DNA of 64,000 nucleotides from Tubulanus polymorphus (taxonomy: Eukaryota > Animalia > Nemertea), in NCBI RefSeq assembly GCF_964204645.1, contig NC_134026.1, forward strand, positions 15,100,150 through 15,164,149. The letters are read 5' to 3'. Position numbers and translations under genes: made by a program. Shown here one piece after another: positions 5,058 to 31,584 of the stretch (within the stretch, counting starts at the first letter, position 1; the number at the start of each line of letters is the position of its first letter). The notes under the pieces were generated by a model that saw nothing but the letters and a program-made list of their open reading frames with translations, made no database searches and was not told the origin of the DNA.

Positions 5058-5083
5058 AATTTCATTAATTGCTAATGACTTAA

Positions 5084-10900: not shown

Positions 10901-10940
10901 AACATGTACAATAATATTGATTTTCATTAACATCATTGTT
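7919..10940 (-). pseudogene. pPolB of Polinton A, N-terminal/exonuclease/motif A part (multiple stops and frameshifts)
   Basis: C2H2-like fingers (CEVC...HLESQKH), IYGDFES (exo I), CCYC...DHDHL...GAAHEDCNL (endonuclease VII-like), RFLDSYRF, and YIDANNLYGWAM (motif A). Confidence 0.9.
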
Positions 10941-11499
10941 TTCTGTCTGGTACTCACTATCTCCAATTTATTAGGGAAAAAAATTACCCGTGGTGATGAG
11001 TGGTGTGTCGCCCTCTCGCCCTCTGGTCTGAAACCCTGATATTCCAATTACTGGTACATTGTATATTCTTTTGGTCTTTTTAATTTATCTCACCTAAATC
11101 TATTCAATCCGTTTGTGTAAGCCTACAGTATTAGTACACTGTTGGGACAAATGGAAAACATGGCATAATAACGAAATTGGCATTATAAAGAATGGAACTT
11201 TCATCAAATTTGGGTTAGATTGGGCAAATTTGTTCTCTGAAATGGCATTTAGTGAGCAATGGCAATAAAAAGGATCGCATTATAATGAACTTTGAATTTA
11301 ATAACTATAAGGAAGAGGGCCTACCTGATTCATTAACTACTGCAGCGGCTGATGTCCAACGATGTGAATTTGCATTTACTGTTGAAATGTAGGTCGTGTC
11401 AGTACCTTGAAGAACACTGCCAGCATACTGTTGAATACACGTATGCAATTGAATGAAATTTGTTAAACAATGATCAATAATATTGAAATTAAACAAATC

Positions 11500-13444: not shown

Positions 13445-13642
13445 TGTCGAGAACAAGTGAGAAAAATTGAGAATTGAGTTCTAACGAACAACGTAATTAC
13501 ATTTATTTACACTACACTTTACGGATTTACATATGCTCTGCTCGCAAGAGCTGCAAAACGACAATTGCCGTACATATACCATACAGTCGATCATGCGCAC
13601 TAGTCGCGGCGCGAAAACCTTGGCGGGAAAATATTCCCGACA
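13445..13642 (-). repeat. 3' LTR of BEL/Pao retrotransposon (198 bp)
   Basis: TGTCG...CGACA ends, PPT GGGCCGGGAGTA immediately upstream on minus, AATAAA inside. Confidence 0.75.
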
Positions 13643-14533
13643 TACTCCCGGCCCAAACAGGTTGTACAAATAGACAGAAAACGAATTCCATCTAGATTAC
13701 GCCTGGTTAGATTGAAGTTACAAACTACAAATTACAAAACATGTGTGAACATAATTAATTATTACAATCGCGATAATTACGGTATCGTCGAATACACAGT
13801 TCATTGTGTCGAATTCAAACTATTCATTTCACGGATATTTTTACGTGCGATCCGCGCAGCACAGCGCTGCGGCCGGGCTGAGTGCAACTCCGAACCGAGT
13901 TCCGGACCACGTTCGACTGTCCGTTGATTCACCTCCGAAGGACCGGCATTTACCTCTAGCGGATAGAGTTTTGTTAACGGTCTACTAGTCGTTCCTGTTG
14001 TGGTTTTAAGTAACGCTGAACGCACGACGTTGTCCCGGCCGAAATTTAAACCGTTGACTCTCCCAAGCCTGCAGTCGACTCGCGGTCCATCATTATGAAT
14101 TAGGACGACGTCCCCAACGCGAACGCTTTAACTCCGACTTCAGGAATTAACGCAAACGAGTCTCACGCAAAGCTGTAAGTTAGACATGTTGCCATCTTTT
14201 CACGAAATGCTGATACAGGTGAGCTCGGTGCTTAGCTCTGTATTGAATAGCTGTCTCTTTGAACTCCGGATTGCGCAGATTATCGACGTTTACGACGGAA
14301 TACGGTACGGTTGATTTACGGCGTCCCTGAAACAATTGGGACGGTGTTATCGGATCAGGGTCGTTTAAATCACTGGACACGTACGTCAACGACCTATCAT
14401 TTAACACCGCTTCGATTTCGGTCACTATGGTTGCATGTTCGCCTCGATCGAGTTTGTTACGATGTAGAACTTTTCTCAGTAGCCGTTTGGTCATTCCAAT
14501 TAACCTTCCCCATAGACCCCCGAACCAAGGAGC
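13643..14533 (-). pseudogene. BEL/Pao pol 3' fragment (integrase core end + DUF5641-type tail)
   Basis: APWFGGLWGRLIGMTKRLLRK, EIEAVLNDRSLTY, PITPSQL, VGDVVLIH and RPLTKLYPLE. Frameshifted and cut off abruptly at 14533. Confidence 0.88.
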
Positions 14534-14555
14534 TAGGGTTAGGGTTAGGGTTAGG
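14534..14555 (+). repeat. Interstitial telomeric tract (TTAGGG)~3.5 at the BEL/PLE junction
   Basis: TAGGGTTAGGGTTAGGGTTAGG. Confidence 0.9.
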
Positions 14556-14669
14556 TTTAGAGATAGAGGTTAGGGGACCAAACCGAAGGTTTGGAGACCC
14601 CACTAGTGCACGGGCAGCGGGTTATCCCTGTAAAAAAGTAGTGAGAGTTAATTGTTGTAGTGAGGCGGT

Positions 14670-17007
14670 CTACGGGACGTTCATGCCTCGGGGTGTGTTC
14701 GTGTCGAGTCGTCGTATCCAGTCTTGTTCGGCTGCTTCGCGGATCGGTCTCGTGGAGCCTGGTAGGTGTTGGAGACCGTACACCCGAAAGTGTTCGCGGG
14801 TGTGGTCGGCTTGGTTGAAGTGGTCCGAGACTGGAGTCGAATTCTTCGTTCTGATGCGTGAGACGTGATGAGTGACGCGTTCTCGTAGAGACATTCCGGT
14901 TTGGCCGACGTACAGCATGTTGCACTTGGTGCATTCGATGCAGTATACAATTTCACGGGTCGCGCAATTAATTGTGCTGCGGATCGCGTGCATTTTGTTG
15001 TGGCTGCGGCAAACGGTTGTTTCTCGGACGAGTGGACACGTACGACATCTCGGTGTTCTGCATTTCTTGGTGCCTCGACGTCGGGTTGACGGAGTTCTTT
15101 GAGTAGACCTGGAAATAGAAGAATTGGAAACAACGGAAGTATTTCTGTTACGATGCGGTGAAGAGGGGACTCGGGGAGGGGGTGGCTCCGTGGGTTTGAG
15201 CTGCGACGAAGTTAGGAGATCTTTGAGACTCTTGTGCTTGGTGTAGGCGGTGACCGTGGTTACCTCGTCAGACCGGCCGGTGGCCGTAGCCAGTTCCGTA
15301 AATCTGGTTTGATTTTATTTTGATGTGTCGCAGTTCGCGGTCTTTGTAGCCACGACCTCTGAGTACTTTAAGGACGGTTCCGGACGCTGCGTGTAAGTCC
15401 GAATCGTTATTGCAGATGCGCCGGAACCGGAGAATTTGACTTTTAACTATACCGGAAAATGTGTGTTTAGGGTGAAACGAGGATCGATGTAGTAATTGAT
15501 GCGAATCGGTTGGTTTGAAGTAGACTTTGGTGTCTACTGTGCCACTTGTCTCGAATTGCGGGCCTTTGAAAGTGGTTACGTCCAGGAAGTTGACGCTGGT
15601 GTCGCTGATTTCGAACTTGAGTTTGATGGATCGGCTCACTGTTTGTAGGACGTCGATGAATTGCATCAACGTTTCGCGGCCGTGTTCCCAAACTATGTAG
15701 ATGTTGTCGATGAACCGAGCGTATAGCGATGGTTGGAGTTCGCTTCTGGACAGACCTTCTTTTTCCCATTCGGCTACAAAGATATTGGCATAAGAAGGAG
15801 CAAAACGCTTACCCATTGCGGTACCTTTTACCTGTAAATATGTGTTTTCGTTAAAGTTAAAGTCGTTTTTCTTCAGGCTGATTTCGAGTAGTTTCAGCAG
15901 CTCGGCATCCGGGCGTCCCGGGTTTGGGTTATCTCGGAGAGCTTGTCGGATGCTGGCGATACCCTCTTCGTGGGGGATGTTGGTGTAGAGCGAATCGATG
16001 TCCATGGTGACGAGTAACGCATCGGCGCTAAATTGTTTACCGGCCAAAATATCTAGAAAGTGGTTGGTATCTTTGACGTACGACGGGTGACCGCGGGCGA
16101 TCGGCTGCAAATAGTAGTCGATCCATTCCGAAATTTCGTAGGTTTCGGAGCCGCAGTCGGAGACGATCGGTCTCCCCGGCGGTACGCGATCGGGTACCGT
16201 CCACTTCTCGCGTTCTTTATGGATTTTGGGAAGCAGATAGAACTGCCTCTGTTTCGGATTATCGGGCGGTAATAGATATTCGGCGGTTTTTAGCGGGATG
16301 ATTTTTCGTCGAGCCATATTTTCGATGATTTCGCGAATTTCTTCCCCGGTCTGTTCGAAGATCGGTTGCTGCAGCGGCTGATAATACTCGAGATCGGCTA
16401 GTTGGAGCATGGCTTCGTGGACGTAGTCGTCGCGGTCCATGATAACCGTAGCGGAACCCTTATCGGCGGCTTTGATGACAATATTAGTGTTGTCACGCAG
16501 CTGCTGGAGGGCTTCGCGTTCCTGTTTAGTGAGGTTATCATTTACGCGACGCGTATCCCTGGTTTGTTGAGCCAATTCGTGCGCGTCGTTGCAGAACCCG
16601 GCGATTACTGGTTCTATTTCATCCGGAGCCCAACTGCTGGGCAGACGGAAACGCGGAGCCTCGCGGTCCGGTTTGTCTCGGAAGTGATGGTCGAGTTTCA
16701 CTAGCCGGTTGAATCGGCACACTCCCTTGGTGCGCTCGGTCGCGGCGGCATCAGAACCGATTTTTGGAGTCGGGCAATAAGTGAGGCCCTTTCGGAGTAG
16801 CTGATGTTGCGCCGGACTTAGGCGGAGTGAACGTGTGAGGTTGACCACCGGGCTCCCGAGAGCGGTGACCGGATCGCGTCGCGCTTGGTTTGGTGCCGGT
16901 TCTTCGTGTTCGTCGGACCTGGAAATGGAAGAAATCAGAGAAGCATTGGTTAATTCCGGTTGATTTAACTCACCAATAGTGGACCCGTTGGTCTCACTAA
17001 TACTTAG
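14670..17007 (-). pseudogene. PLE unit 1 ORF2 (RT + GIY-YIG), disrupted
   Basis: Catalytic FIDD changed to FIDN. A ~120-bp deletion with filler near 15310 causes a frameshift before the GIY-YIG domain. Confidence 0.9.
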
Positions 17008-18563
17008 TTTAAACCACTGAGCCAGTGGTCCAGCAGGGTGTTAGCTGTACCACGGTTCCAGTGGATCCCGTCTCCAACAACTCTGAAGCGTCGATCATCG
17101 ATGGGTGGTATCGCGGTGACGTCGTCGTGATTCTCGAGGAATTCGTTGAACTTCCGGGCGAACTGCTGGTGTTCGCGGGTCGTGTTGAGTTGAACGAAGT
17201 GGACGAACGAGTGCTGATACTTCTTGACTGCGGCGTTGATCAGGCGCTGTGTGGTCTTCCTGGCGGTCGCTTCGAAGTTGTTGTCGCGGTTGTTGATTCC
17301 GACGCTGATGATCACCGTATCCGGGCGATCTCGGCGCTCCGGTACAGCATCGATCAGGTCGGCGAGATGAGCTATCTTGCAGCCGGGGAAGCTCTCGATC
17401 TGGACGTCATCCGGACGGCGGCTTGATGTGATGTTACTCAGATTTGAGTCACCAATCACCAGAATGGGTCGCCGGGTTGGTGGCAGACTCCAATCCTGTT
17501 TCTTCCGACCCGTATTCGGATGACGGCGAACTTCCTGGGGCGCCATCGGTCTCGGTGTTGGCGTCGGACTTCGCGCTGGCAGTAGGCGCCCTGGTGACCT
17601 GTAATGAGACGGAGAGCTGGAAAGAGAAGAAGAGAGAGACGGCGTCGGACTGCTGGTTGGTGCGGTCGGCGTTCTCTGCGGCGGCGGCGGCGTCGGGTTT
17701 CGAGGCGGCGGCGTCGGACTTCTCGGTGGCGTCGGACTTCTTGGTGGCGGCGGCGGCGTCGGCATCGGACTTCTCGGTGGTGGCGCCATTCTGGTTGGTG
17801 GCGTCCTGGTGACATCCGCGTAGCTTCTCGGTGACCTGGAATCAGAAAAAGAAGGAGGCGCTGTGGGCGCGGCGGGCGCGGCTGCGGTTGGTGCAGGCGT
17901 CCTCGGCGTCGCGGGCTTTCGAATCTTCCGGCTCGGTCTCGGCGGCGGACGAATCTTCGGCTCCGTGGGTGCCTCCTGGTGGTGTGACCTGAAATGAGAA
18001 GGGGAAGAAGGTGGGTTAGATAGGACATTTCTGAGTTTGTCAGACAGAGCCTGACCGCGGAATTTCGACCGCAAATCCAGCGCGATGTTGAAAAGCCGGA
18101 TCGTTCCGGGGCTCAGACGGGAGCCGAAATTCCTCCGGGCCCATGTCAGGGCGACATCCTGTGCTGATAGACAGTCCGGCAGAGGATCACCCATTAGCTC
18201 AACAAATGTGGCAGCGTAATGGATGGTCAGCTCTTTCGAAACTGTCTCCATCCAGACGTCCGCGGCAGCGTGCAGCTGCACCGTTACTGCTTCGGTGCAA
18301 GCCGCCGGCCGCAGGAACATCTTCAGATGGTCCTTCTTCCTCCGAATCGCTTTCGGACCAGAGCTCAACTGGGCAAGGTGGTGCGCCACTTGAAGAGCTC
18401 TATAATAGGTTTTCGGCGACATCCCGGGTTGCTGGTGTCGCTCAGGGCGTCCTCCGCCCTTGCTGGTCTTCTCAGCTGGTGGTCGTTTCTTCTTTCGAGT
18501 AGATCGCTCCATTGACAGATATTTCGGCGAGGTTGCCTTCGTCAGTGTCAGTGCAGGAATCAT
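17004..18563 (-). CDS. PLE unit 1 ORF1: basic N-terminus, Pro/Ser-rich repeats, C-terminal SGNH/GDSL hydrolase
   Basis: ILVIGDSN (block I), SFPGCK (II), ISVGINN (III), GDGIHW (V); RSPTPPP repeats; 519 aa open. Confidence 0.85.
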   Translation of the reverse strand: MIPALTLTKATSPKYLSMERSTRKKKRPPAEKTSKGGGRPERHQQPGMSPKTYYRALQVAHHLAQLSSGPKAIRRKKDHLKMFLRPAACTEAVTVQLHAAADVWMETVSKELTIHYAATFVELMGDPLPDCLSAQDVALTWARRNFGSRLSPGTIRLFNIALDLRSKFRGQALSDKLRNVLSNPPSSPSHFRSHHQEAPTEPKIRPPPRPSRKIRKPATPRTPAPTAAAPAAPTAPPSFSDSRSPRSYADVTRTPPTRMAPPPRSPMPTPPPPPRSPTPPRSPTPPPRNPTPPPPQRTPTAPTSSPTPSLSSSLSSSPSHYRSPGRLLPARSPTPTPRPMAPQEVRRHPNTGRKKQDWSLPPTRRPILVIGDSNLSNITSSRRPDDVQIESFPGCKIAHLADLIDAVPERRDRPDTVIISVGINNRDNNFEATARKTTQRLINAAVKKYQHSFVHFVQLNTTREHQQFARKFNEFLENHDDVTAIPPIDDRRFRVVGDGIHWNRGTANTLLDHWLSGLN

Positions 18564-19259
18564 GCTGAACTAGCAGCAGCAGCAGATAAAAAAGACAAAC
18601 GCGCGGAGCGCGTTTTTAATGCTCGAGAGTGGTGGCCACTCTCCTACATTCAGGACGCGTAGGTGCATGATTATTTGCTTGATATGATGATAGGTATATG
18701 AGTTGAACTATTATGAGATGAACTAAGGGGGATGTGGGTGGTGTGATATTTGTGTGAGTGTGAAGGTACTGGTGGAAGGATTCAAACAAAGGTACATACA
18801 GAACGGACAGTTTTTATTTTTTAGGCGTTTTTGTTTGGTTCGGTCCTTATCAGGAGTTTGTTAGTGATTAGTTATAATATTTTTTTTTTTTTTTTTTTTT
18901 TTTTCTATAAATAGTGATTAATATAATACGTATATATCACAAGAGTCTATGATATAATATATGGTAGATATATATGTATATAATATGATACACAAAAATA
19001 GTGATTTTCCTCCGTTAAGGGGAGTCGCGATATAGTTAGAATACTTTGTCAATTACTATATACAAAACTTATAATTTCTTAGAAATGTTAATAAGAGTAT
19101 ATAGTTCTACTGCATATAGTTCGGTTCACGTGATGTGTTGTGTAAGGAGTAGCGACCTAGATACGGGCTACCTATATAGTTCTTGTAACACAAAGAAATC
19201 TTCCATTCAATTCTCCGACTACGCGGGTGTCGGTTCGTAGTAGAGTACACGCTATAGAG

Positions 19260-22013
19260 TTATAGAATTGACTTAAACGCTTCCACGATGTCTGAAGACG
19301 GCCATGGACTCGAAATATCGTAAAAGACACTCCTTAGTATCGGGTTATTTCGGTTGGAATTTAGGTAATTTTTCGTTAAGAGTTTAAAGCGCTGTTCCAC
19401 AGTTTCTATTCGAGCTTGCTTATGTAGGTCTGCCGTTCTTGTATAGCGCGGTTGGCCTAGAATGATTCGTAAGCATTTATTTTGGTGTATTTGAAGGCGG
19501 TCTAACTGACTACATGGGCAAGTTACCAGTATCGGAGCTCCGTATTCATAGATTGATCGAATGAGTAATTTAAAAGCAGTGAGTATGTATTCCATTTTTA
19601 CGCGGTTTCGTTTCAAAATAGCTAGTATTCCAATTCTTTTATTTGCCTTAATTAATCTCTCTGTTATTTCCAGATTCCAGCGTAAATTAGACGAAAAAGT
19701 AATTCCGAGGAATTTGGTAGAATTTGATAGCGGTATTTGTTGGCCGTGAACAGTGTGCTCAGTGTATGGGTCGGTATTTATTAGGCGACTAAAGTGTATA
19801 CTAACACATTTAAGCGCGTTTACTTTTAGCCTCCACATGTCACTCCATTGAGTTAGTTTGTCTATCGATTTTTGATGGAGATTTTCGATTGTTTTAGTTT
19901 TTACATTGTGCGTGTTCCATAGACTCATATCGTCTGCGAACAATGACGATTGACTATAATGACTAGCTTTAATTGTATCCGAGGGAAAATCGTTTATATA
20001 GATGATAAAAAGTGTCGGCGAGAAAATCCCTCCTTGAGGGACTCCAGCGTTTATTTGCCTTGGCTGGCTAATACACCCTTCATTAGCGACTTTAAAAGTT
20101 CGACCCTGTAGATAGTTTTTAAGTAAGAGCTTAAAGTTGGTTGGAATAGATAAATGATTAATTTTGTAGATAATTCCGTCGTGCCAAAGTTTATCGAACG
20201 CTTTCTCTAGGTCGAAAAATGTAGCACGCGTGCATTGCCGACGTTTTAGGCCTTTAGCGATATCATGAGACATTTTTAATATTTGATCTATGGTCGAATG
20301 TCCTTTTCGAAAACCAGCTTGTATTTCGGTAAAGAAGTTGGTATTTTCTAAGTAATCTGTTAATTTATTGTTCATGATTTTTTCGAAAATTTTGCCGATC
20401 GAGTTGGTTAAACTGATAGGACGCAAATTTTTGCAAAGTGTAGCATCTTTGCCGGCTTTTGGAATCATAGTAATTTTCGCAGACTTCCAGAATGATATAT
20501 AGTAGCCATTTCTTTGGCAGTAGTTAAAAATGTGACATAGGTGGGTTAAAAATATCGAAGGACAATTTTTAATAATCGCGTTCGTGATTCTATTTTCTCC
20601 GGGTGCTTTATTAAGTTTCAACCGTTTGATATAGCGTTTTATGTCTAGTTCAGTAATTGTTTCGTTTAATATATGACCCGTGTCTTCTTCAGTATTTTCG
20701 TATACGAAGTTTCTATTGGATTCTTCTACGAAACGTTTATGTTGATCGCTGAAGTTTGGATTAGTAGGCGTTTGAAAAACGTCGAATAAAAAGTCGGCGT
20801 ATAGTTCGACGATATCTTTATCGTTACTCGCGGTTTGATCGTTATAAGCTAAATTCGAAATAATGTTTTTTTTTATCAACGTTACGTTAATGTTTTTAAT
20901 ACCTCGCCAGAATTTACTCGAGTTCGGATTCGATGTATTTATGTCATCTAGTAGTTTTTTAGTCTTGTTATTTTTGTTGTCTCGCATAAGTTTTCTAATT
21001 TCAAGAGTTAATCTATTATATTGTGATTTTAAATAAGGATGACGCGTTTTAACGTATTCTCGTTTTAAATAACGTCGTCGTTTAATTATTAATTCTATAT
21101 TACGAGGTAAGCGGTCAACTCGTTTCGATCTTTTATTATTTTCCATGTTATTTTGTCTTTTAATTTCGTTAATTATTTCTAATTCTATTTTGCTGTAAAT
21201 ATTTTCCACCTGCTCGTTAGTAGTTAGATTTGTTGTATCGATCGCTGAGAGCTTGTCAGATACGTTGTCGTGGAATTTTGACCAGTCGATATTTCTCGTA
21301 GACAGTAAGTCGGTATATAGTTCGCGTTCGATGACTTTCGGACGCGTAGAAATATTTATTAAAATTGGTCGGTGATCACTATCGACGCTATCGCAAACAT
21401 GAAAAGAGTTTACTTTAGGGAATATGTGCGAACTACAAAGCGCTCTATCTAGAATATCAGTGTGTCCTCTCACGCGGTAATCATAATAGGTATGGTCTTT
21501 TGTATTTAATGAAATGAGACCGTGCGTATTAATAATGTTCGTTAGATTAATTCCGGCTGTATTAGTCGTACGGTTACCGAGTATCGGGTGTTTAGCGTTC
21601 AAATCACCCAAAATGAAAAAATTTTGATTCGATCGTTCAATGACTTCTACAAATTGTTGTTCGAGAATTTTTGCAGGTGGGCAATAAACCCCTATGACAT
21701 TGAAAGTACTGTTATCGTTATTTTTCACCGATAAAGCTATATATTCAGTTGAGTCGCTGTTAAAATTAAGAGTCAGTTGTTCGATAAACAGGTCACGGTT
21801 GTACAGAGCCATTAAACCCCCTCAGGATTTCCCTGTCCTCGGCTTATGGATTTTCTTATAATTTTTCGGATTAAAATTTATCGTTTTGCATTTAGTTTCT
21901 GCTACGAAAAGAATATCGATATTTTTATTCAAAAGTAATTCAGTTACTTCTGGCAATTTTTGCTTCACGCCGTTTATGTTTAAATAACATATATTCAGAG
22001 TAGACTTAGCCAT
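19260..22013 (-). pseudogene. LINE ORF2: AP endonuclease + reverse transcriptase, one in-frame TGA at 21822-21824
   Basis: ICYLNING, FVAETK, GDLNAKH and SDHRP (APE); LRPISL, QAGFR, DLEKAFD, GVPQGG and LFADD (RT). ORFs 21822-22013 and 19260-21812 are in the same frame. No RNase H seen. Confidence 0.92.
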
Positions 22014-22084
22014 GAGGAAAAGTTAGACAATTGTTTAAAAGAAAGTTAATGTGTTAGATTAAAATCAGTACATCGCTTACGATT

Positions 22085-22807
22085 TTATTTAGCTAGATTT
22101 GTGTCGCTAGCAGATAACGGTCTCGTTATTTTTATCTTACTCAGCCGGTGTGAGTTTTTCCCGACGGTATGTTCGTATATATCTTTACCGCTGATTTTTA
22201 AGTTAGTATGATCTAATGTGCTTTCGCTTATCCTCGCACAGATGTCGGATAGGCTATTTTCTTTGTTCATACGTACTCTGTAAATTATGTCTGCAATTAG
22301 CGATAGAAATGATGTTTCGTTTAGTATAATGATATTATTCGGTGGAGGGCTTTCTTTCGGTTTATCTAGTGAACTTCTACGTTTCGGTATAGGTCTTTGG
22401 TTTTTATTTTGTTCCGATGAAAAGGGTTTCTCGGATACAGATTGTTTTTTCTCAGATACTGTTTTTTTCTTTCGTGGTGTTGGTATCGGTTTCCTACGCT
22501 CTTTCGTTTCACTCGGTCTAGAGTTGGATTTCGACCTCGACCTCGACCTAGATCTCTCTCGTTGTTTCTTTTTAATTTCTTCCTGCACAAATGTGCAGGC
22601 TTTGTCGAAACTGCGGTGTTCTCCACCGCAGTTCGAACAAACGTAATTTTCTTTTATTTTACACTCATAGGTTTGGTGAAAGTGGGCGCACTTCGCGCAA
22701 ATTGCTTTGTCTTCTGTGCAGTTATATTGATTATGCCCAAACATCTGGCATTTCCTACATTGGAGTAGTGTTGGGCTGCGTCTATAAGCTACGCATTTCT
22801 TCCTCAC
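22085..22807 (-). CDS. LINE ORF1 (gag-like) C-terminal part with three CCHC knuckles
   Basis: CRKCQMFGHNQYNC, CAKCAHFHQTYEC, CSNCGGEHRSFDKAC, then an RS-rich basic tract. 5'-truncated. Confidence 0.88.
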   Translation of the reverse strand: MRKKCVAYRRSPTLLQCRKCQMFGHNQYNCTEDKAICAKCAHFHQTYECKIKENYVCSNCGGEHRSFDKACTFVQEEIKKKQRERSRSRSRSKSNSRPSETKERRKPIPTPRKKKTVSEKKQSVSEKPFSSEQNKNQRPIPKRRSSLDKPKESPPPNNIIILNETSFLSLIADIIYRVRMNKENSLSDICARISESTLDHTNLKISGKDIYEHTVGKNSHRLSKIKITRPLSASDTNLAK

Positions 22808-22822
22808 ATCATGCTGAACTAG

Positions 22823-25021
22823 GATTAGACACGGGTTTTTATACACGCAGCGCGCAACAAGTGAACAGTATTTGAGTTAGAAGTTAAGTGACCATATGAG
22901 ACCTTGTGATCTAGACTAATTGTACTTCTGTGATCAAGCTAATAGACAAACTAGGGGTCTGACTAATTATGCCTTTGATCCAGAGTGACTAGAAAACAGC
23001 ACTAATTATGGCCCTTGATCTAGCTGTTGAATAGTTTGCTTTGATGTATAGTTCTAAAGATCTAAAGAACGGCGTGTCTAATATAGAATTGAAAAGTTTA
23101 TTTCGATATAACCTGATAAATACTCAAAGTGTTTTCTATAAAGAGAAATCTAGAATATGTATTATTAATATACGTGAACCGGAATGTTCGAAATATGTCC
23201 GAGTTCAGTTTCAAAATTGCTTAATTCCTAATTAGTTTAGATGCGTTAATTAGCGGTGCGCGGCCGAGGCGTATTCCGATATACGCGTGTATACTAAATA
23301 GTCGTAAATGGTGAAATCCGGTTCTTAGTTAATCAAGTTTTCTCCGTATTCTAAAGCTTTTAAGAGCGGATTTTGAAATATCTACGCGGTATTCTACCGA
23401 AAATTGGATGAATTAGACAGCGCGGCGTCGGCGATTTAGTAGGAAGTTATAACCCGTAAGATCTAAATTACTGAGTGAGCGCGGGTGGTTAATTAGCCCT
23501 AATTATGGGTGACGAGTTTTGATAGAAATGTCTTACTAATACGTCTGTTTTAATTCTAAGTTCTTAAATATAATTCTATTAGATAAACTACGCTTATTTA
23601 GAGTTATTAGGATCGAGTAAAGCTATGTGAACTTGAACATGTGACAAATATATTCAGACCGGAGCGCGGGTATTCAGTAAATCGGTTTAAGCTTGCGTAG
23701 TTTGAGTGGTTCAAAAACACTATGATCTCTTCTTTAATCCGAAGGTTGAAATATATACGTGATATAAAACTCTTTTTGAATCGGGAATATTGGGCTGTGT
23801 TCTTTGAAAAAAAAAAACTGATGAGTTTGAAGGCGTCGTAACTGCGATTTTGTATAGAATTGAGTCGGATAATTAGTCAAGAGGCGCAGGTGGCCGATCG
23901 GTCACTAATTATGAGTGACTCGTAAACAGTGATTGATGTCCGTGGACTATTATTTATCCTATAAACTTCTTATACTTCTACAACCTATAGTGCGGTTTTT
24001 GAATATAGCTACTAATACTTTTGAGCGATCTCATTAGAATTGTTATGCGAAAATAAACTGTCTGTTTTAGAGAAATTTGAAACTTGACACCCGGGTCTAT
24101 ATAGAGTATGTTCCAAGAGTTGGCGCGTAGATACGATAATAGTTAATTAGGACGTAGCGGGTTAGGTCCCCGACCGAACGTTATAGATTAAACGGAGGTT
24201 AATTAGGGTGCCGCGGGTTCGAGTCCCGACCAGGCGCCGTTTAGTAATTGAATAGTTCTATTCTAAATGTTTTTTACCTATTCTGGATTCCTTTTAATTC
24301 TGAATCTTTGACGGATACAATAGTACTTTTCAGATGTTTCTACGATATAATCTTAGTGCCGACGCATATTTTCAAAATAAATAAGAGCGGTGGACAGGTT
24401 ACCGGTATCTAACGCGGGGCACCGGCAACCTGTCAGTACTAGCGGTTAATTTCGGAGCGGCGGGTACGGTTCCCGAGTATTCTCCGGAGCTTAATTCGGG
24501 TGCCGCGGGTTCGAGTCCCGATCAGGCGCGCCGTTTTAGTAATTGAGTATATTCTTACCTATTCTAGATTCCCTTTCTTTCTAAATTTATAATAGATTAA
24601 TTAATACTTTTCGGGTGTTTCTATGATATAATCACAGTGCTGACGCATATTTTCGAAATAGATAATAGCGGTGGACTGGTTACCGGTTTCTATCGTCCTG
24701 GGACAGGCAACCAGTCTGTACTAGCGGTTACGGTTCGGTTCCCGATATCGCGCTTTTGTTTATTTTTCTAACTGTTTCTGATATTTGGTCTGTCTTCTTA
24801 CTTACTGAATTTCGATTGAGTTTTCAAAGTAAAGCAGAGAGAACTAATTAAAAGATAAAAGGTTGATGATTCCTGTGGAGCTTGTGATCTTGGAGTTTGT
24901 TTTGTACTCTGTCTCTGAGCGGGTTTCTGCTTCAGGCGACGGAGGATGATTCTGCAAATAGATTGATGATTAATAATTAATCAGTTAAGATAATTTACGA
25001 GGGAAACCTGGCACGGGCTAA
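22823..25021 (-). promoter_or_regulatory. PLE unit 1 long non-coding leader (~2.2 kb), probably intron-containing
   Basis: Repeated at 29139-31284; no long ORF. Donor-like sites CA|GTAAGT (24805) and AG|GTAAGA (24558); acceptor-like TTCAG just before the ORF1 ATG; internal ~290-bp duplication. Confidence 0.6.
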
Positions 25022-25142
25022 GGTTAGGTTTAGAGATAGAGGTTAGGGGACCAAACCGAAGGTTTGGAGACCCCACTAGTGCACGGGCAGCGGGTTATCC
25101 CTGTAAAAAAGTAGTGAGAGTTAATTGTTGTAGTGAGGCGGT

Positions 25143-27602
25143 CTACGGGACGTTCATGCCTCGGGGCGTGTTCGTGTCGAGTCGTCGTATCCAGTCTTGT
25201 TCGGCTGCTTCGCGGATCGGTCTCGTGGAGCCTGGTAGGTGTTGGAGACCGTACACCCGAAAGTGTTCGCGGGTGTGGTCGACTTGGTTGAAGTGGTCCG
25301 AGACTGGAGTCGAATTCTTCGTTCTGATGCGTGAGACGTGATGAGTGACGCGTTCTCGTAGAGACATTCCGGTTTGGCCGACGTACAGCATGTTGCACTT
25401 GGTGCATTCGATGCAGTATACAATTTCACGGGCCGCGCAATTAATTGTGCTGCGGATCGCGTGCATTTTGTTGTGGCTGCGGCAAACGGTTGTTTCTCGG
25501 ACGAGTGGACACGTACGACATCTCGGTGTTCTGCATTTCTTGGTGCCTCGACGTCGGGTTGACGGAGTTCTTTGAGTAGACCTGGAAATAGAAGAATTGG
25601 AAACAACGGAAGTATTTCTGTTACGATGCGGTGAAGAGGGGACTCGGGGAGGGGGTGGCTCCGTGGGTTTGAGCTGCGACGAAGTTAGGAGATCTTTGAG
25701 ACTCTTGTGCTTGGTGTAGGCGGTGACCGTGGTTACCTCGTCAGACCGGCCGGTGGCCGTAGCCAGTTCCGTAAATCTGGTTCGGATGTTACGGGCTAGG
25801 GTTCGGTTGGCTTCGGAGTGAGGTAAGATAAGCGGTAAACGCTTTTTCGGCGGTTCGTCGGCCCGTTGTTGTTCTCGTAGATCTCGTTCGGCGTGGTGCC
25901 GTAGAGCTTGGCTTTTGATGTGTCGCAGTTCGCGGTCTTTGTAGCCACGACCTCTGAGTACTTTAAGGACGGTTCCGGACGCTGCGTGTAAGTCCGAATC
26001 GTTATTGCAGATGCGCCGGAACCGGAGAATTTGACTTTTAACTATACCGGAAAATGTGTGTTTAGGGTGAAACGAGGATCGATGTAGTAATTGATGCGAA
26101 TCGGTTGGTTTGAAGTAGACTTTGGTGTCTACTGTGCCACTTGTCTCGAATCGCGGGCCTTTGAAAGTGGTTACGTCCAGGAAGTTGACGCTGGTGTCGC
26201 TGATTTCGAACTTGAGTTTGATGGATCGGCTCACTGTTTGTAGGACGTCGATGAATTGCATCAACGTTTCGCGGCCGTGTTCCCAAACTATGTAGATGTC
26301 GTCGATGAACCGAGCGTATAGCGATGGTTGGAGTTCGCTTCTGGACAGACCTTCTTTTTCCCATTCGGCTACAAAGATATTGGCATAAGAAGGAGCAAAA
26401 CGCTTACCCATTGCGGTACCTTTTACCTGTAAATATGTGTTTTCGTTAAAGTTAAAGTCGTTTTTCTTCAGGCTGATTTCGAGTAGTTTCAGCAGCTCGG
26501 CACCCGGGCGTCCCGGGTTTGGGTTATCTCGGAGAGCTTGTCGGATGCTGGCGATACCCTCTTCGTGGGGGATGTTGGTGTAGAGCGAATCGATGTCCAT
26601 GGTGACGAGTAACGCATCGGCGCTAAATTGTTTACCGGCCAAAATATCTAGAAAGTGGTTGGTATCTTTGACGTACGACGGGTGACCGCGGGCGATCGGC
26701 TGCAAATAGTAGTCGATCCATTCCGAAATTTCGTAGGTTTCGGAGCCGCAGTCGGAGACGATCGGTCTCCCCGGCGGTACGCGATCGGGTACCGTCCACT
26801 TCTCGCGTTCTTTATGGATTTTGGGAAGCAGATAGAACTGCCTCTGTTTCGGATTATCGGGCAGTAATAGATATTCGGCGGTTTTTAGCGGGATGATTTT
26901 TCGTCGAGCCATATTTTCGATGATTTCGCGAATTTCTTCCCCGGTCTGTTCGAAGATCGGTTGCTGCAGCGGCTGATAATACTCGAGATCGGCTAGTTGG
27001 CGCATGGCTTCGTGGACGTAGTCGTCGCGGTCCATGATAACCGTGGCGGAACCCTTATCGGCGGCTTTGATGACAACATTAGTGTTGTCACGCAGCTGCT
27101 GGAGGGCTTCGCGTTCCTGTTTAGTGAGGTTATCATTTACGCGACGCGTATCCCTGGTCTGTTGAGCCAATTCGTGCGCGTCGTTGCAGAACCCGGCGAT
27201 TACTGGTTCTATTTCATCCGGAGCCCAACTGCTGGGCAGACGGAAACGCGGAGCCTCGCGGTCCGGTTTGTCTCGGAAGTGATGGTCGAGTTTCACTAGC
27301 CGGTTGAATCGGCACACTCCCTTGGTGCGCTCGGTCGCGGCGGCATCAGAACCGATTTTTGGAGTCGGGCAATAAGTGAGGCCCTTTCGGAGTAGCTGAT
27401 GTTGCGCCGGACTTAGGCGGAGTGAACGTGTGAGGTTGACCACCGGGCTCCCGAGAGCGGTGACCGGATCGCGTCGCGCTTGGTTTGGTGCCGGTTCTTC
27501 GTGTTCGTCGGACCTGGAAATGGAAGAAATCAGAGAAGCATTGGTTAATTCCGGTTGATTTAACTCACCAATAGTGGACCCGTTGGTCTCACTAATACTT
27601 AG
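25143..27602 (-). CDS. PLE ORF2: reverse transcriptase + Cys linker + GIY-YIG endonuclease (Neptune-like); no ATG start, frame open back to the ORF1 stop
   Basis: KAADKG, YLLPKIHK, GRPIVS, DIDSLYTNIP, GTAMG, RFIDD, FLD; CRTPRCRTC linker; IVYCIEC..C...YVGQT...R..HH, E.DWI..LDT..PRGMN. Confidence 0.95.
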   Translation of the reverse strand, partial: LSISETNGSTIGELNQPELTNASLISSISRSDEHEEPAPNQARRDPVTALGSPVVNLTRSLRLSPAQHQLLRKGLTYCPTPKIGSDAAATERTKGVCRFNRLVKLDHHFRDKPDREAPRFRLPSSWAPDEIEPVIAGFCNDAHELAQQTRDTRRVNDNLTKQEREALQQLRDNTNVVIKAADKGSATVIMDRDDYVHEAMRQLADLEYYQPLQQPIFEQTGEEIREIIENMARRKIIPLKTAEYLLLPDNPKQRQFYLLPKIHKEREKWTVPDRVPPGRPIVSDCGSETYEISEWIDYYLQPIARGHPSYVKDTNHFLDILAGKQFSADALLVTMDIDSLYTNIPHEEGIASIRQALRDNPNPGRPGAELLKLLEISLKKNDFNFNENTYLQVKGTAMGKRFAPSYANIFVAEWEKEGLSRSELQPSLYARFIDDIYIVWEHGRETLMQFIDVLQTVSRSIKLKFEISDTSVNFLDVTTFKGPRFETSGTVDTKVYFKPTDSHQLLHRSSFHPKHTFSGIVKSQILRFRRICNNDSDLHAASGTVLKVLRGRGYKDRELRHIKSQALRHHAERDLREQQRADEPPKKRLPLILPHSEANRTLARNIRTRFTELATATGRSDEVTTVTAYTKHKSLKDLLTSSQLKPTEPPPPRVPSSPHRNRNTSVVSNSSISRSTQRTPSTRRRGTKKCRTPRCRTCPLVRETTVCRSHNKMHAIRSTINCAAREIVYCIECTKCNMLYVGQTGMSLRERVTHHVSRIRTKNSTPVSDHFNQVDHTREHFRVYGLQHLPGSTRPIREAAEQDWIRRLDTNTPRGMNVP

Positions 27603-27608
27603 TTTAAA
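27572..27608 (-). promoter_or_regulatory. Candidate -1 programmed ribosomal frameshift signal (also at 16977-17013)
   Basis: GGT TTA AAC TAA gives an in-phase U_UUA_AAC heptamer, followed by a 7-nt spacer and hairpin TAGTGAGACC-AACG-GGTCCACTA. The -1 frame is ORF2. Confidence 0.8.
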
Positions 27609-29128
27609 CCACTGAGCCAGTGGTCCAGCAGGGTGTTAGCTGTACCACGGTTCCAGTGGATCCCGTCTCCAACAACTCTGAAGCGTCGATCATCGATGGG
27701 TGGTATCGCGGTGACGTCGTCGTGATTCTCGAGGAGTTCGTTGAACTTCCGGGCGAACTGCTGGTGTTCGCGGGTCGTGTTGAGTTGAACGAAGTGGACG
27801 AACGAGTGCTGATACTTTTTGACTGCGGCGTTGATCAGGCGCTGTGTAGTCTTCCTGGTGGTCGCTTCGAAGTTGTTGTCGCGGTCGTTGATTCCGACGG
27901 TGATGATCACCGTATCCGGGCGATCTCGGCGCTCCGGTACAGCATCGATCAGGTCGGCGAGATGAGCTATCTTGCAGCCGGGGATGCTCTCGATCTGGAC
28001 GTCATCCGGACGGCGGCTTGATGTGATGTTACTCAGATTTGAGTCACCAATCACCAGAATGGGTCGCCGGGTTGGTGGCAGACTCCAATCCTGTTTCTTC
28101 CGACCCGTATTCGGATGACGGCGAACTTCCTGGGGCGCCATCGGTCTCGGTGTTGGCGTCGGACTTCGCGCTGGCAGTAGGCGCCCTGGTGACCTGTAAT
28201 GAGACGGAGAGCTGGAAAGAAAAGAAGAGAGAGACGGCGTCGGACTGCTGGTTGGTGCGGTCGGCGTTCTCTGCGGCGGTGGCGTCGGACTTCTCGGTGG
28301 CGTCGGACTTCTTGGTGGCGGCGGCGGCGTCGGCATCGGACTTCTCGGTGGTGGCGCCATTCTGGTTGGTGGCGTCCTGGTGACATCCGCGTAGCTTCTC
28401 GGTGACCTGGAATTAGAAAAAGAAGGAGGCGCTGTGGGCGCGGCGGGCGCGGCTGCGGTTGGTGCAGGCGTCCTCGGCGTCGCGGGCTTTCGAATCTTCC
28501 GGCTCGGTCTCGGCGGCGGACGAATCTTCGGCTCCGTGGGTGCCTCCTGGTGGTGTGACCTGAAATGAGAAGGGGAAGAGGGTGGGTTAGATAGGACATT
28601 TCTGAGTTTGTCAGACAGAGCCTGACCGCGGAATTTCGACCGCAAATCCAGCGCGATGTTGAAAAGCCGGATCATTCCGGGGCTCAGACGGGAGCCGAAA
28701 TTCCTCCGGGCCCATGTCAGGGCGACATCCTGTGCTGATAGACAGTCCGGCAAAGGATCACCCATTAGCTCAACAAATGTGGCAGCATAATGGATGGTCA
28801 GCTCTTTCGAAACTGTCTCCATCCAGACGTCCGCGGCAGCGTGCAGCTGCACCGTTACTGCTTCGGTGCAAGCCGCCGGCCGCAGGAACATCTTCAGATG
28901 GTCCTTCTTCCTCCGAATCGCTTTCGGACCAGAGCTCAACTGGGCAAGGTGGTGCGCCACTTGAAGGGCCCTGTAGTAGCTTTTCGGCGACATCCCGGGT
29001 TGCTGGTGTCGCTCAGGGCGTCCTCCGCCCTTGCTGGTCTTCTCAGCTGGTGGTCGTTTCTTCTTAGATCGCTCCATTGACAGATATTTCGGCGAGGTTG
29101 CCTTCGTCAGTGTCAGTGCAGGAATCAT
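27599..29128 (-). CDS. PLE unit 2 ORF1: Pro-rich + SGNH/GDSL hydrolase (509 aa)
   Basis: IGDSN, PGCK, VGIND and DGIH motifs; near-identical to 17004-18563. Confidence 0.85.
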   Translation of the reverse strand: MIPALTLTKATSPKYLSMERSKKKRPPAEKTSKGGGRPERHQQPGMSPKSYYRALQVAHHLAQLSSGPKAIRRKKDHLKMFLRPAACTEAVTVQLHAAADVWMETVSKELTIHYAATFVELMGDPLPDCLSAQDVALTWARRNFGSRLSPGMIRLFNIALDLRSKFRGQALSDKLRNVLSNPPSSPSHFRSHHQEAPTEPKIRPPPRPSRKIRKPATPRTPAPTAAAPAAPTAPPSFSNSRSPRSYADVTRTPPTRMAPPPRSPMPTPPPPPRSPTPPRSPTPPPQRTPTAPTSSPTPSLSSFLSSSPSHYRSPGRLLPARSPTPTPRPMAPQEVRRHPNTGRKKQDWSLPPTRRPILVIGDSNLSNITSSRRPDDVQIESIPGCKIAHLADLIDAVPERRDRPDTVIITVGINDRDNNFEATTRKTTQRLINAAVKKYQHSFVHFVQLNTTREHQQFARKFNELLENHDDVTAIPPIDDRRFRVVGDGIHWNRGTANTLLDHWLSGLN

Positions 29129-29138
29129 GCTGAACTAG

Positions 29139-31284
29139 GATTAGACACGGGTTTTTATACACGCAGCGCGCAACAAGTGAACAGTATTTGAGTTAGAAGT
29201 TAAGTGACCATATGAGACCTTGTGATCTAGACTAATTGTACTTCTGTGATCAAGCTAATAGACAAACTAGGGGTTTGACTAATTATGCCTTTGATCCAGA
29301 GTGACTAGAAAACAGCACTAATTATGGCCCTTGATCTAGCTGTTGAATAGTTTATTTCGATATAACTTAATAAATACTCAAAGTGTTTTCTATAAAGAGA
29401 AATCTAGAATATGTATTATTAATATACGTGAACCGGAAAGTTCGAAATATGTCCGAATTCAGTTTCAAAATTGCTTAATTCCTAATTAGTTTAGATGCGT
29501 TAATTAGCGGTGCGCGGCCGAGGCGTTTTCCGATATACGCGTGTTTACTAAATAGTCGTAAATGGTGAAATCCGGTTATTAGTTAATCAAGTTTTCTCCC
29601 TATCTAAAGCTTTTAAGAGCGGATTTTGAAATATCTACGCGGTATTCTACCGAAAATTGGATGAATTAGACAGCGCGGCGTCGGCGATTTAGTAGGAAGT
29701 TATAACCCGTAAGATCTAAATTACTGAGTGAGCGCGGGTGGGTAATTAGCCCTAATTACGGGTGACGAGTTTTGATAGAAAAGTCTTACTAATACGTCTG
29801 TTTTAATTCTAAGTTCTTAAATATAATTCTATTAGATGAACTACGCTTATTTAGAGTTATTAGGATCGAGTAAAGCTATGTATAGGGGAGCCGATCTTGA
29901 ACATGTGTCAAATATATTCAGACCGGAGCGCGGGTATTCAGTAAATCGGTTTAAGCTTGCGTAGTTTGAGTGGTTCAAAAACACTATGATCTCTTCTTTA
30001 ATCCGAAGGTTGAAATATATACGTGATATAAGACTCTTTTTGAATCGGGAATATTGTGCCGTGTTCTTTGATACAAACTGATGAGTTTGAAGGCGTCGTA
30101 ACTGCGATTTTGTATAGAATTGAGTCGGATAATTATAAATTAGTCAAGAGGCGCAGGTGGCCGATCGGTCACTAATTATGAGTGACTTGTAAACAGTGAT
30201 TGATGTCCGTGGACTATTATTTATCCTCTAAACTTCTTATACTTCTACAACCTATAGTGCGGTTTTAGAATATAGCTACTAATACTTTTAAGCGATGTCA
30301 TTAGAATTGTTATCCGAAAATAAACTGTCTGTTTTAGAGAAATTTGAAACTTGACACCCGGGTCTTTATAGAGTATGTTCCAAGAGTTGGCGCGTAGATA
30401 CGATAATAGTTAATTAGGACGTAGCGGGTTAGGTCCCCGACCGAACGTTATAGATTAAACGGAGGTTAATTAGGGTGCCGCGGGTTCGAGTCCCGACCAG
30501 GCGCCGTTTAGTAATTGAATAGTTCTATTCTAAATGTTTTTACCTATTCTGGATTCCTTTTAATTCTGAATCTTTAACGGATACAATAGTACTTTTCAGA
30601 TGTTTCTACGATATAATCTTGGTGATACGCATATTTTCAAAATAAATAAGAGCGGAGGACTGGTTACCGGTATCTAACGCGGGGCACCGGCAACCGGTCA
30701 GTACTAGCGGTTAATTTCGGAGCGGCGGGTATGGTTCCCGAGTATTCTCCGGAGCTTAATTCGGGTGCCGCGGGTTCGAGTCCCGATCAGGCGCGCCGTT
30801 TTAGTAATTGAGTATATTCTTACCTATTCTAGATTCCCTTTATTTCTAAATTTATAATAGATTAATTAATACTTTTCGGGTGTTTCTATGATATAATCTC
30901 AGTGCTGACGCATATTTTCGAAATAGATAATAGCGGTGGACTGGTTACTGGTTTCTATCGTCCTGGGACAGGCAACCAGTCTGTACTAGCGGCGGGTTCG
31001 GTTCCCGATATCGCGCTTTTGTTTATTTTTCTAACTGTTTCTGATATTTGGTCTGTCTTCTTACTTACTGAATTTCGATTGAGTTTTCAAAGTAAAGCAG
31101 AGAGAACTAATTAAAAGATAAAAGGTTGATGATTCCTGTGGAGCTTGTGATCTTGGAGTTTGTTTTGTACTCTGTCTCTGAGCGGGTTTCTGCTTCAGGC
31201 GACGGAGGATGATTCTGCAAATAAATTGATGATTAATAATTAATCAGTTAAGATAATTTACGAGGGAAACCTGGCACGGGCTAA
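29139..31284 (-). promoter_or_regulatory. PLE unit 2 long non-coding leader
   Basis: Copy of 22823-25021. Confidence 0.6.
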
Positions 31285-31584
31285 GGTTAGGTTTAGAGAT
31301 AGAGGTTAGGGGACCAAACCGAAGGTTTGGAGACCCCACTAGTGCACGGGCAGCGGGTTATCCCTGTAAAAAAGTAGTAAGAGTTAATTGTTGTAGTGAG
31401 GCGGTCTACGGGACGTTCATGCCTCGGGGCGTGTTCGTGTCGAGTCGTCGTATCCAGTCTTGTTCGGCTGCTTCGCGGATCGGTCTCGTGAAGCCTGGTA
31501 GGTGTTGGAGACCGTACACCCGAAAGTGTTCGCGGGTGTGGTCGACTTGGTTGAAGTGGTCCGAGACTGGAGTCGAATTCTTCG
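31285..31584 (-). repeat. PLE upstream pseudo-LTR (3' 300 bp of a further 5'-truncated unit)
   Basis: Near-identical to 25022-25321 (end of GIY-YIG + 3' tail); abuts Polinton B polB. Confidence 0.9.

What the first reader, a model, noticed from the sequence alone, without database searches (positions are those of the whole stretch)
14500..14580. PLE chain is anchored on a de novo telomere-like tract added to a broken BEL element
Seen: BEL integrase stops mid-ORF at ...CCAAGGAGC, followed by TAGGGTTAGGGTTAGGGTTAGG and then the PLE 3' end. The internal junctions (25022, 31285) carry only GGTTAGG, preceded by GGGCTAA, so ~2.5 extra TTAGGG units are specific to the target side. The element RNA ends in ...CUAAACCUAACC, complementary to a G-rich overhang, and its 5' end points away from the tract. 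The two flanks of the chain (BEL vs Polinton polB) are unrelated and show no TSD. Known: EN-less PLEs (Athena, Coprina) prime on telomeric G-overhangs in this orientation, and PLE RTs are sister to telomerase. Inference: an EN-bearing PLE extended a telomerase-healed break, or added the repeats itself by reiterative copying, and the end was later re-fused.
Basis: partly seen in the sequence, partly recalled or inferred. Interest (0 to 1): 0.78.

Follow-up and report, generated by a model that had tools for sequence, protein, structure and literature searches.

The report
Nuclease-bearing retroelement anchored on telomere repeats
The short chromosome-end repeat here is a recurring landing mark of a jumping gene, probably of a ribbon worm, that carries its own DNA-cutting enzyme yet ends on TTAGGG repeats in many copies, so it likely starts copying from telomere-type DNA ends, a trick we found described only for relatives that lack that enzyme.

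Summary
The tract is real. 22 nt of telomere repeat (14534-14555) join a BEL integrase cut at 14533 to the 3' end of a Neptune-like Penelope element (esterase-like ORF1, RT, Cys linker, GIY-YIG). So 8 added bases plus 2 substitutions are junction-specific. Raw reads of an independent sample show this is a family trait. About 71% of 3'-end depth stops at this motif, 237 reads there continue into (GGGTTA)n, and 264 of 702 and 285 of 720 reads carry the two telomere-type letters. Related endonuclease-bearing elements often carry CCCTAA-like stretches after their stop codon (10 of 41 clusters; 88 sense against 4 antisense motif hits). Best reading: the RNA pairs with a TTAGGG-ended DNA primer, as nuclease-less Athena/Coprina do, and telomerase likely laid the seed on the BEL break. 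A repeat tail copied from telomeric master copies is a close rival. Re-fusion of a healed chromosome end is unproven and not needed. Reads could not confirm this particular junction. A new variant of a known kind.

The parts
13474..14533 (-). 3' remnant of a BEL/Pao LTR retrotransposon: end of integrase (cut just before APWFGG), DUF5641, polypurine tract and LTR starting at 13642; the left LTR boundary is approximate
   Evidence: tblastn of BEL proteins hits 14533-14162 and 14115-13825, nothing further upstream in the window; DUF5641 E 3e-8; PPT/TGT at 13640-13653
14534..14555 (+). Telomere-repeat tract TAGGG TTAGGG TTAGGG TTAGG; G-strand points into the element; 14534-14541 has no counterpart in the element
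14542..14577 (-). Element 3' end at its anti-telomere motif (site 2, likely priming site 14542-14555; site 1 GGTTAGGGG near 14568-14576)
   Evidence: alignment to internal copies; best TTAGGG-pairing 14-mer in 22808-29134
14573..14601 (-). Predicted RNA hairpin just 5' of the anti-telomere stretch
   Evidence: fold of the equivalent copy 2 region, coordinates; prediction only
14670..18569 (-). PLE copy 1: ORF1 (17004-18569), RT (15268-17040, motif C reads FIDN, 121-nt deletion near 15318), GIY-YIG (14670-15314); inactive
18513..18550 (-). Minimal type I hammerhead-like motif at the start of ORF1 (second copy at 29078-29115)
   Evidence: pattern scan; Rfam found no hammerhead; cleavage untested
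18574..22807 (-). APE-RT LINE inserted in the pLTR, poly(A) at 18880-18904, 15-nt target duplication at 18559 and 22808
22808..25014 (-). pLTR extension / 5' region (tail at about 24964-25014); 41 substitutions in 2136 aligned bases against the second copy 29124-31277
25015..25028 (-). Internal copy of the element-encoded degenerate anti-telomere motif (GGGCTAAGGTTAGG on +), overlapping the second conserved GCCCGTGC motif (25011-25018); where most family 3' ends fall
25143..29134 (-). PLE copy 2, open frames: ORF1 511 aa with SGNH/GDSL-like C-terminus; ORF2 830 aa stop to stop with RT (FIDD), CxxxxCxxC linker and GIY-YIG
31278..31584 (-). 5'-truncated third copy (307 bp); joins Polinton-type polB at 31585 with no telomeric repeat

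Best explanation
The tract is the recurring 3'-junction mark of an endonuclease-bearing, Neptune-like Penelope family whose RNA likely base-pairs with a TTAGGG-ended DNA strand and primes reverse transcription there, and at this internal site host telomerase likely laid the short seed on a break in the BEL element. Shown: the tract, the element-encoded near-complement (12 Watson-Crick plus 2 wobble-compatible positions over 14 nt), the orientation, the family-wide coupling of 3' ends to TTAGGG, and the open GIY-YIG frame in copy 2. Inferred: internal RT initiation at the motif; pairing with a G-rich 3' end; telomerase as the source of the seed; the element's own nuclease as a possible maker of the break; template jumps onto the RNA tail as the source of tandems; loss of the BEL remainder by deletion at insertion or by recombination between near-identical copies.
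For: Reads of run X5 (other sample and study than X1) laid on the internal junction: mean depth about 1289 in the body, 374 in the tail and 230 in the extension, so 71% of depth ends at the motif, 11% in the tail and 18% reads through. 237 reads end at 25015 with a (GGGTTA)x5 majority (agreement 0.72). 199 reads end at 25022 with a mixed majority whose last letters are GGGTTAG (0.60). 25018 C>T is in 264 of 702 and 25021 A>G in 285 of 720 reads, from 134-139 starts. In contig run X1 the telomere form has depth 1000 of 2273. Joints from 5'-truncated copies back to the tail (24964-24991) total 54 reads at 4 joints, against 2 reads with (GGGTTA)x3 between two copies; one search shows two such tail joins (34 and 19 reads, partly the same molecules) whose letters start directly with tail sequence. 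So the RNAs that RT jumps onto seem to carry the ordinary tail, not a CCCUAA tail. One X4 contig shows a 5'-truncated end followed by TTAGGG-like repeats. Relatives: 10 of 41 clusters have excess CCCTAA/CCTAAC in 400 nt after the stop (8 of 12 with terminal EN, 2 of 29 with nested EN, p<0.05 against dinucleotide shuffles); 88 sense hits, 4 antisense, 19 expected. Precedent: telomerase-laid interstitial repeats at breaks, half with flank deletion (PMC2246262, passages); internal RT initiation in a PLE (PMC11167929, parts 1-2 of 4).
Against: At most 1 base at the BEL break is in register with the repeat: 39 of 42 BEL relatives with the motif have Arg before it and none Leu. About a quarter to a third of telomerase-type insertions in PMC2246262 also have none, so this weakens but does not exclude the reading. 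The one PLE tested in vitro primed without homology (PMC11167929). The window's 5' junction has no telomeric cap. 31 of 41 related clusters show no excess of the motif. Up to about 145 reads belong to sister families that share only the terminal 35-90 nt (loose ends behind 25050 and 25107), so the counts at 25015/25022 are not purely this family. Only 12 of 53 loose-end rows were shown and 21 of 82. Tract lengths and flanks could not be read copy by copy. The BEL junction itself is unconfirmed by reads. TTAGGG as this species' telomere repeat is inferred, not measured.
Confidence: 0.47

Rival explanations
1. 3' transduction: master copies sitting on real telomeric arrays are transcribed through into the repeats, the RNA carries a (CCCUAA)n tail, and ordinary endonuclease-led insertion at internal sites such as BEL copies a variable piece of that tail. 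No telomerase acts at the BEL break.
For: Many junction reads run on for about 30 nt of repeat, so long-tract donors probably exist. Almost no in-register homology at the BEL break. PAc primes without homology and starts inside its RNA (PMC11167929). L014 shows a degenerate-to-perfect CCCTAA run and then unrelated flank.
Against: Tandem joints overwhelmingly use the ordinary tail (54 reads against 2 with repeats between). Read-through and tail-ended copies mostly keep the degenerate C/A letters: about 380 such reads, and T/G counts close to the junction groups. These joints could, however, stem from few master arrays.
Confidence: 0.3
2. Rearrangement remnant: the chain formed on a true telomere, and a later deletion or ectopic recombination joined it to BEL inside the repeat array, leaving 2-3 units.
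For: Unrelated flanks, no target duplication, BEL remainder missing, and a heavily rearranged neighbourhood of broken polB copies. Copies differ by 34 substitutions in 4002 bases and 41 in 2136, which fits a mosaic history.
Against: The group of 199 reads ending at 25022 suggests short repeat pieces on non-repeat flanks elsewhere too, which would need many such accidents. No other telomeric array lies in the window.
Confidence: 0.1
3. The element's own RT makes the TTAGGG units by telomerase-like reiterative copying of CCCUAACC (site 1, at the foot of the hairpin) and then resets to site 2 for full-length synthesis.
For: Site 1 can template the six-letter unit and lies next to a predicted hairpin. 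PLE RTs are sister to telomerase (PMC8557442, passages). Short tracts on poorly homologous flanks would follow naturally.
Against: The site where ends actually fall (site 2) has two Cs and would give TTAGG units. Site 1's Cs are paired in the predicted stem. A backward template reset is needed. I found no such activity reported in the papers seen.
Confidence: 0.08
4. Assembly artefact: two loci were joined at the repeat or inside the PLE chain.
For: The flanks are unrelated.
Against: The tract is only 22 nt, the join is clean, and junctions of the same form are common in raw reads of another sample. Copy 1 carries private substitutions (14694, 14809) that almost no other read shares, as expected of a real single locus.
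Confidence: 0.05

Closest known systems
Neptune-type EN+ Penelope-like elements (PMC8557442 passages; esterase ORF in PMC5408684 passages)
   Same: RT plus C-terminal GIY-YIG in one ORF, CX2-5CxxC linker, CxxC inside the nuclease core, upstream esterase-like ORF, partial tandems with pLTRs, minimal hammerhead-like motif, bias to simple repeats
   Different: The repeat at the junction is the telomere hexamer, the RNA carries its complement at the site where most 3' ends fall, and short tracts appear on targets that lacked them. The passages seen name (TA)n, (CA)n and (C)n as targets of EN+ PLEs, not TTAGGG.
Athena / Terminon and Coprina EN-deficient PLEs (PMC6431247, PMC3846280, PMC13159263 passages; primary papers PMC1890498 and PMC5850863 not held)
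   Same: Reverse-complement telomeric stretch at the 3' end, same polarity relative to the G-strand, head-to-tail chains, possible use of breaks as well as telomeres, esterase ORFs in some families
   Different: This family keeps a GIY-YIG domain in the RT frame. Its hammerhead-like motif lies 2-4 kb from the anti-telomere stretch, not next to it. The stretch is degenerate. The window copy is internal and has no telomeric cap at its 5' end.
PAc (Poseidon) internal initiation and 'tail' (PMC11167929, parts 1-2 of 4)
   Same: 3' ends at defined internal sites plus an optional 25-50 nt tail
   Different: PAc primes without homology at AT-rich cuts; here the main start site is complementary to the repeat found at the junction
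Short interstitial telomeric sequences laid by telomerase at breaks (PMC2246262 passages)
   Same: A few perfect TTAGGG units at a break with loss of flank
   Different: Here the units are followed by retroelement cDNA, and in-register homology is 0-1 base
TRAS/SART telomere-repeat-specific LINEs
   Same: Nuclease-bearing retroelements tied to telomeric repeats
   Different: They are APE-type R1 LINEs that cut existing arrays; different enzyme class, and they do not explain short tracts on a non-telomeric target

Membership tests
Neptune-type EN+ PLE | RT and C-terminal GIY-YIG endonuclease in one ORF | tested here: met
   ORF 25143-27635: RVT_1 E 9e-8 and GIY-YIG E 4e-4; DKG, GRPI, FIDD and nuclease R/E/N motifs
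Neptune-type EN+ PLE | CX2-5CxxC linker between RT and EN; CCHH motif with two Cys inside the GIY-YIG core | tested here: met
   CRTPRCRTC at residue 664 and IVYCIECTKCNMLYVG at 701; downstream His residues seen in the translation; definition from PMC8557442 passages
Neptune-type EN+ PLE | Tandem or partial-tandem structure with pLTRs and a minimal hammerhead motif | tested here: met
   2.x-unit chain; TGACA-CTGACGA-stem II-GAAA-TATC-TGTCA at 29078-29115, of the kind in PMC4209133 passages; not found by Rfam; cleavage untested
Neptune-type EN+ PLE | Upstream SGNH/GDSL esterase ORF (in some Neptune-like families) | tested here: inconclusive
   Lipase_GDSL_2 E 1.9e-4, below the curated cut-off; 4c1b ORF1 protein E 0.025; GDS..GxN..DxxH pattern upstream in 15 of 28 loci with enough flank, window included
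Neptune-type EN+ PLE | RT phylogeny groups with reference Neptune rather than Nematis or Coprina | not tested
   No named reference sequences were at hand; the tree (quick method) holds only unnamed relatives and places the window's RT in no well-supported group
Athena/Coprina telomere PLEs | No endonuclease domain | tested here: not met
   GIY-YIG present in frame with RT
Athena/Coprina telomere PLEs | Reverse-complement telomeric stretch at the 3' end, in G-overhang-priming orientation | tested here: met
   14/14 pairable positions (12 Watson-Crick, 2 wobble), best such site in 22808-29134; 3' ends coupled to TTAGGG in reads
Athena/Coprina telomere PLEs | Hammerhead ribozyme directly beside the anti-telomere stretch | tested here: not met
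   The only convincing hammerhead-like motif is at the ORF1 start, 2.2 kb and 4 kb from the motifs
Athena/Coprina telomere PLEs | 5'-truncated ends capped by telomeric repeats | tested here: inconclusive
   Absent at 31584; one X4 contig and 2 X5 reads show it
Athena/Coprina telomere PLEs | Location at or near chromosome ends | not testable with these tools
   No genome held; 150-nt reads cannot tell telomeres from interstitial arrays
Telomerase-made interstitial telomeric sequence | Tract absent from the ancestral target | tested here: met
   The tract interrupts a conserved integrase motif; 0 of 42 BEL relatives with the motif show the Leu-Thr run it would encode; protein-level test only
Telomerase-made interstitial telomeric sequence | 1-5 nt of target in register with the repeat | tested here: inconclusive
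   0-1 base, depending on a codon that could not be seen

The most novel reading that the evidence does not exclude
A retrotransposon that joins both PLE lifestyles: its GIY-YIG nuclease cuts an internal site, TTAGGG repeats are added to the cut end (by recruited telomerase, or in the boldest form by the element's own telomerase-like RT from CCCUAACC), and the RNA then pairs with that fresh seed to prime. It would thus create its own telomere-type target anywhere in the genome and seed interstitial telomeric repeats. The trait may extend across a wide unnamed group of esterase-bearing EN+ PLEs.
Probability: 0.3. Interest if true: 0.85.

Novelty: new variant of a known kind. Interest (0 to 1): 0.62.

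Why it matters
The papers seen split PLEs into nuclease-bearing elements that insert internally and nuclease-less ones that pair with telomeric overhangs (PMC8557442, PMC6431247, passages). A young, multi-copy family with an open nuclease frame whose 3' ends often sit on TTAGGG blurs that split. It supplies a living candidate for the proposed step between telomere-bound and free PLEs. Copy 2 has open frames and an in vitro PLE assay exists (PMC11167929), so two old questions become testable: whether a PLE RT primes on G-overhangs by RNA pairing, and whether it can add repeats itself. Nine literature searches showed no description of an EN+ PLE family with TTAGGG junctions. Repbase, Arkhipova 2006 and Koyama 2013 were not read, and Gladyshev 2007 and Arkhipova 2017 are not held, so prior mention cannot be excluded.

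Tried and rejected
Whole-genome junction census: impossible, no genome held. Direct read test of the BEL junction: the tool skips the repeat-like stretch. Expression: no RNA holder listed, which is no evidence either way. Rfam found no ribozyme in 14000-32000; the hammerhead-like motif comes from a pattern scan only. 'The tract is native BEL sequence' (a Leu codon would give TAG): rejected, 0 of 42 relatives have Leu there; 5 of 47 lacked the motif. 'Chance': rejected. 'One-off event': rejected. 'Slippage at the priming site': disfavoured, it gives five-letter units. Microhomology at the 5' junction: an 8-nt match seen against a 71% identical polB copy is absent from the 91% identical copy, so it was not accepted. 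Tree of 44 RTs: the careful search did not finish; the quick tree leaves the window's element unplaced. In the relatives test 10 of 80 loci (79 fetched plus the window's copy) lacked a detectable EN, and 11 of 53 clusters were dropped for under 150 nt of 3' flank, among them L061, which has four CCCTAA in a row. The loci are the best 80 of 302 relatives, single contigs of unknown hosts, so element-encoded motif and target tract cannot be told apart there. The supplement of PMC8557442 was searched for three telomere terms; the places shown (2 per term) gave nothing relevant. PMC12602865 (a Neptune in killifish) has no occurrence of 'telomer'. Earlier findings of this scan: none on this genome or sequence.

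Full report
Observation. Window 14534-14555 is TAGGG TTAGGG TTAGGG TTAGG. It is unique in the window and far beyond chance. To its left is the 3' remnant of a BEL/Pao element on the minus strand. Homology to full-length BEL proteins starts exactly at 14533, and the upstream part of BEL is not in the window. Of 47 BEL relatives, 42 show the APW motif; 39 have Arg before it and none Leu. The tract is therefore not BEL sequence, and at most its first T could be. To its right begins a minus-strand chain of 2.x copies of a Penelope-like element (14542-31584), interrupted by a LINE with a 15-nt target duplication. The chain ends 5'-truncated against a Polinton-type polB fragment with no telomeric repeat.

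The internal copies read GGGCTAAGGTTAGG at the same place, which is 12/14 identical to the telomere repeat. Both differences are wobble-compatible if the RNA pairs with a telomeric G-strand, and this is the best such 14-mer in the 6.3 kb scanned. The junction-specific part is 8 added bases plus 2 substitutions. The element has a second short site, GGTTAGGGG, at the foot of a predicted hairpin.

The element. ORF2 of copy 2 is open, with RT motifs, a CxxxxCxxC linker and a GIY-YIG domain. ORF1 ends in a weakly scoring SGNH/GDSL-like domain. A minimal hammerhead-like motif lies at the ORF1 start (Rfam silent). These features fit Neptune-type elements as described in passages of PMC8557442, PMC5408684 and PMC4209133; the RT was not placed against named references. 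The copy at the junction is dead (FIDN, 121-nt deletion). The best database hit is labelled Tubulanus polymorphus, 96% identical, so the host is probably this ribbon worm. TTAGGG as its telomere repeat is inferred from the general metazoan pattern (PMC2678813 passage).

Family-wide test. No genome was held, so reads were used. On the junction itself the tool skipped the repeat-like stretch, which leaves this join unconfirmed. On the internal copy, raw reads of run X5 (a sample and study different from X1; about 12% of the run read, 2135 reads laid) give mean depth 1289 in the body, 374 in the tail and 230 in the extension: 71% of depth ends at the motif, 11% in the tail and 18% reads through. 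237 reads have loose ends at 25015 with majority (GGGTTA)x5, agreement 0.72. 199 reads at 25022 give a mixed majority ending in GGGTTAG, agreement 0.60. 81 reads at 25007 share one non-telomeric flank. The telomere-type letters occur in 264 of 702 (25018) and 285 of 720 (25021) reads, from 134-139 starts. Contig run X1 has the same form at depth 1000 of 2273. Caveats: up to about 145 reads come from sister families sharing only the terminal part; 12 of 53 loose-end rows were shown; reads like human DNA may be dropped without notice; tract lengths were not resolved per copy. Even so, coupling of 3' ends to TTAGGG is a family trait.

Two kinds of ends. Tail-type ends (24964-24991) appear as joints from 5'-truncated copies of the same element: 54 reads at 4 joints, and groups of 34 and 19 reads that start directly with tail sequence (partly the same molecules). 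Only 2 reads show (GGGTTA)x3 between two copies. One X4 contig shows a truncated 5' end followed by TTAGGG-like repeats. I infer that first priming happens at the anti-telomere motif, while later template jumps use the RNA's ordinary tail. This argues modestly against an RNA that already carries a CCCUAA tail.

Relatives. 79 loci (best of 302) were fetched from metagenome contigs. After removing loci without EN, clustering at 85% and dropping 11 of 53 clusters with short flanks, 10 of 41 clusters besides the window's show excess CCCTAA/CCTAAC within 400 nt after the stop: 8 of 12 with terminal EN and 2 of 29 with nested EN. There are 88 sense hits, 4 antisense and 19 expected. L017 has its CCCTAA stretch between two copies of a conserved GCC(C/A)GTGC-like motif, as the window does. 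L014 and L061 end in runs of perfect units. Six terminal-EN clusters with the motif form one well-supported branch; the window's element is unplaced (quick tree). These are single contigs from unknown hosts, and 31 of 41 clusters show no excess.

Mechanism. Most likely (0.47) the RNP starts reverse transcription at the internal motif, using a TTAGGG-ended 3' DNA end held by 14 pairs. On real telomeres that end exists. At BEL it was probably made by telomerase acting on a break, perhaps the element's own cut; telomerase-laid interstitial repeats with flank deletion are documented (PMC2246262). The weak point is the lack of in-register bases at the break. The close rival (0.30) is 3' transduction of repeats from telomeric master copies, helped by the finding that a Poseidon element primes without homology (PMC11167929). 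A rearrangement remnant (0.10), self-synthesis from site 1 (0.08) and assembly error (0.05) follow. Slippage at the main site would give TTAGG, not TTAGGG.

Comparison and novelty. It works like Athena/Coprina at its 3' end but is not a member: it has an endonuclease, and its hammerhead-like motif is not adjacent to the repeat. It is built like Neptune. Passages of PMC8557442, PMC6431247, PMC3846280 and PMC13159263 assign overhang pairing to EN-deficient PLEs only, and nine searches showed no EN+ family with TTAGGG junctions. Key primary papers were not held and Repbase could not be searched; bioRxiv supplements were closed and could bear on this. Three earlier AI notes from other genomes describe similar short TTAGGG tracts at retroelement ends; they are leads only. 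Verdict: a real and family-wide feature, a new variant of a known kind, with the origin of the seed still open. Interest 0.62.

Noticed in passing
L002-L079: Many relatives (29 of 41 clusters) have the GIY-YIG domain nested before the last ~65-residue segment (AY.[RK]N.NL.D.L) that precedes the nuclease in the window's element: two RT-EN layouts in one group, clustered on the tree.
   Followed up: partly
window 25011-25018, 25081-25088; L003, L006, L011, L017, L022: A conserved 3' UTR motif GC[CG][CA]G[TC]GC occurs on the sense strand in 20 of 42 clusters (antisense 1 of 42), twice within 20-130 nt in 6 of 42. The family's 3' ends cluster at the second copy, so it may mark the RT start or protein-binding site.
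   Followed up: partly
window 25022-25110 (loose ends behind 25050 and 25107; before 14588): Other repeat families in the same species share only the terminal 35-90 nt or carry other degenerate telomere-like ends; they may be non-autonomous partners or sister PLEs.
   Followed up: no
window 25792-25913 versus 15318: The 121-nt deletion in copy 1 starts at a second telomere-like 14-mer inside ORF2 (GGGCTAGGGTTCGG, 13/14 pairable); possibly chance.
   Followed up: no
window 18574-22807: An APE-RT LINE with poly(A) and a 15-nt target duplication sits about 10 nt from the PLE's hammerhead-like motif, at the ORF1 start.
   Followed up: partly
window 27599-27635: ORF1 and ORF2 overlap in different frames, which suggests frameshifting or reinitiation.
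   Followed up: no
window 1-1368, 7914-11056, 31585-35431, 48864-52734: At least three broken, partly inverted Polinton-type polB copies (71-91% alike); two of them break within about 100 nt of the same point.
   Followed up: no
window 2489-5062 and 6091-7028: A 31-nt satellite array (77 copies) and a nested palindromic 199-nt repeat interrupt one polB copy.
   Followed up: no
window 24137-24730 and 30404-30992: An internal ~290-nt duplication within the pLTR extension contains a tRNA T-loop-like motif (GGGTTCGAGTCCC); Rfam gave only a chance-level hit.
   Followed up: no
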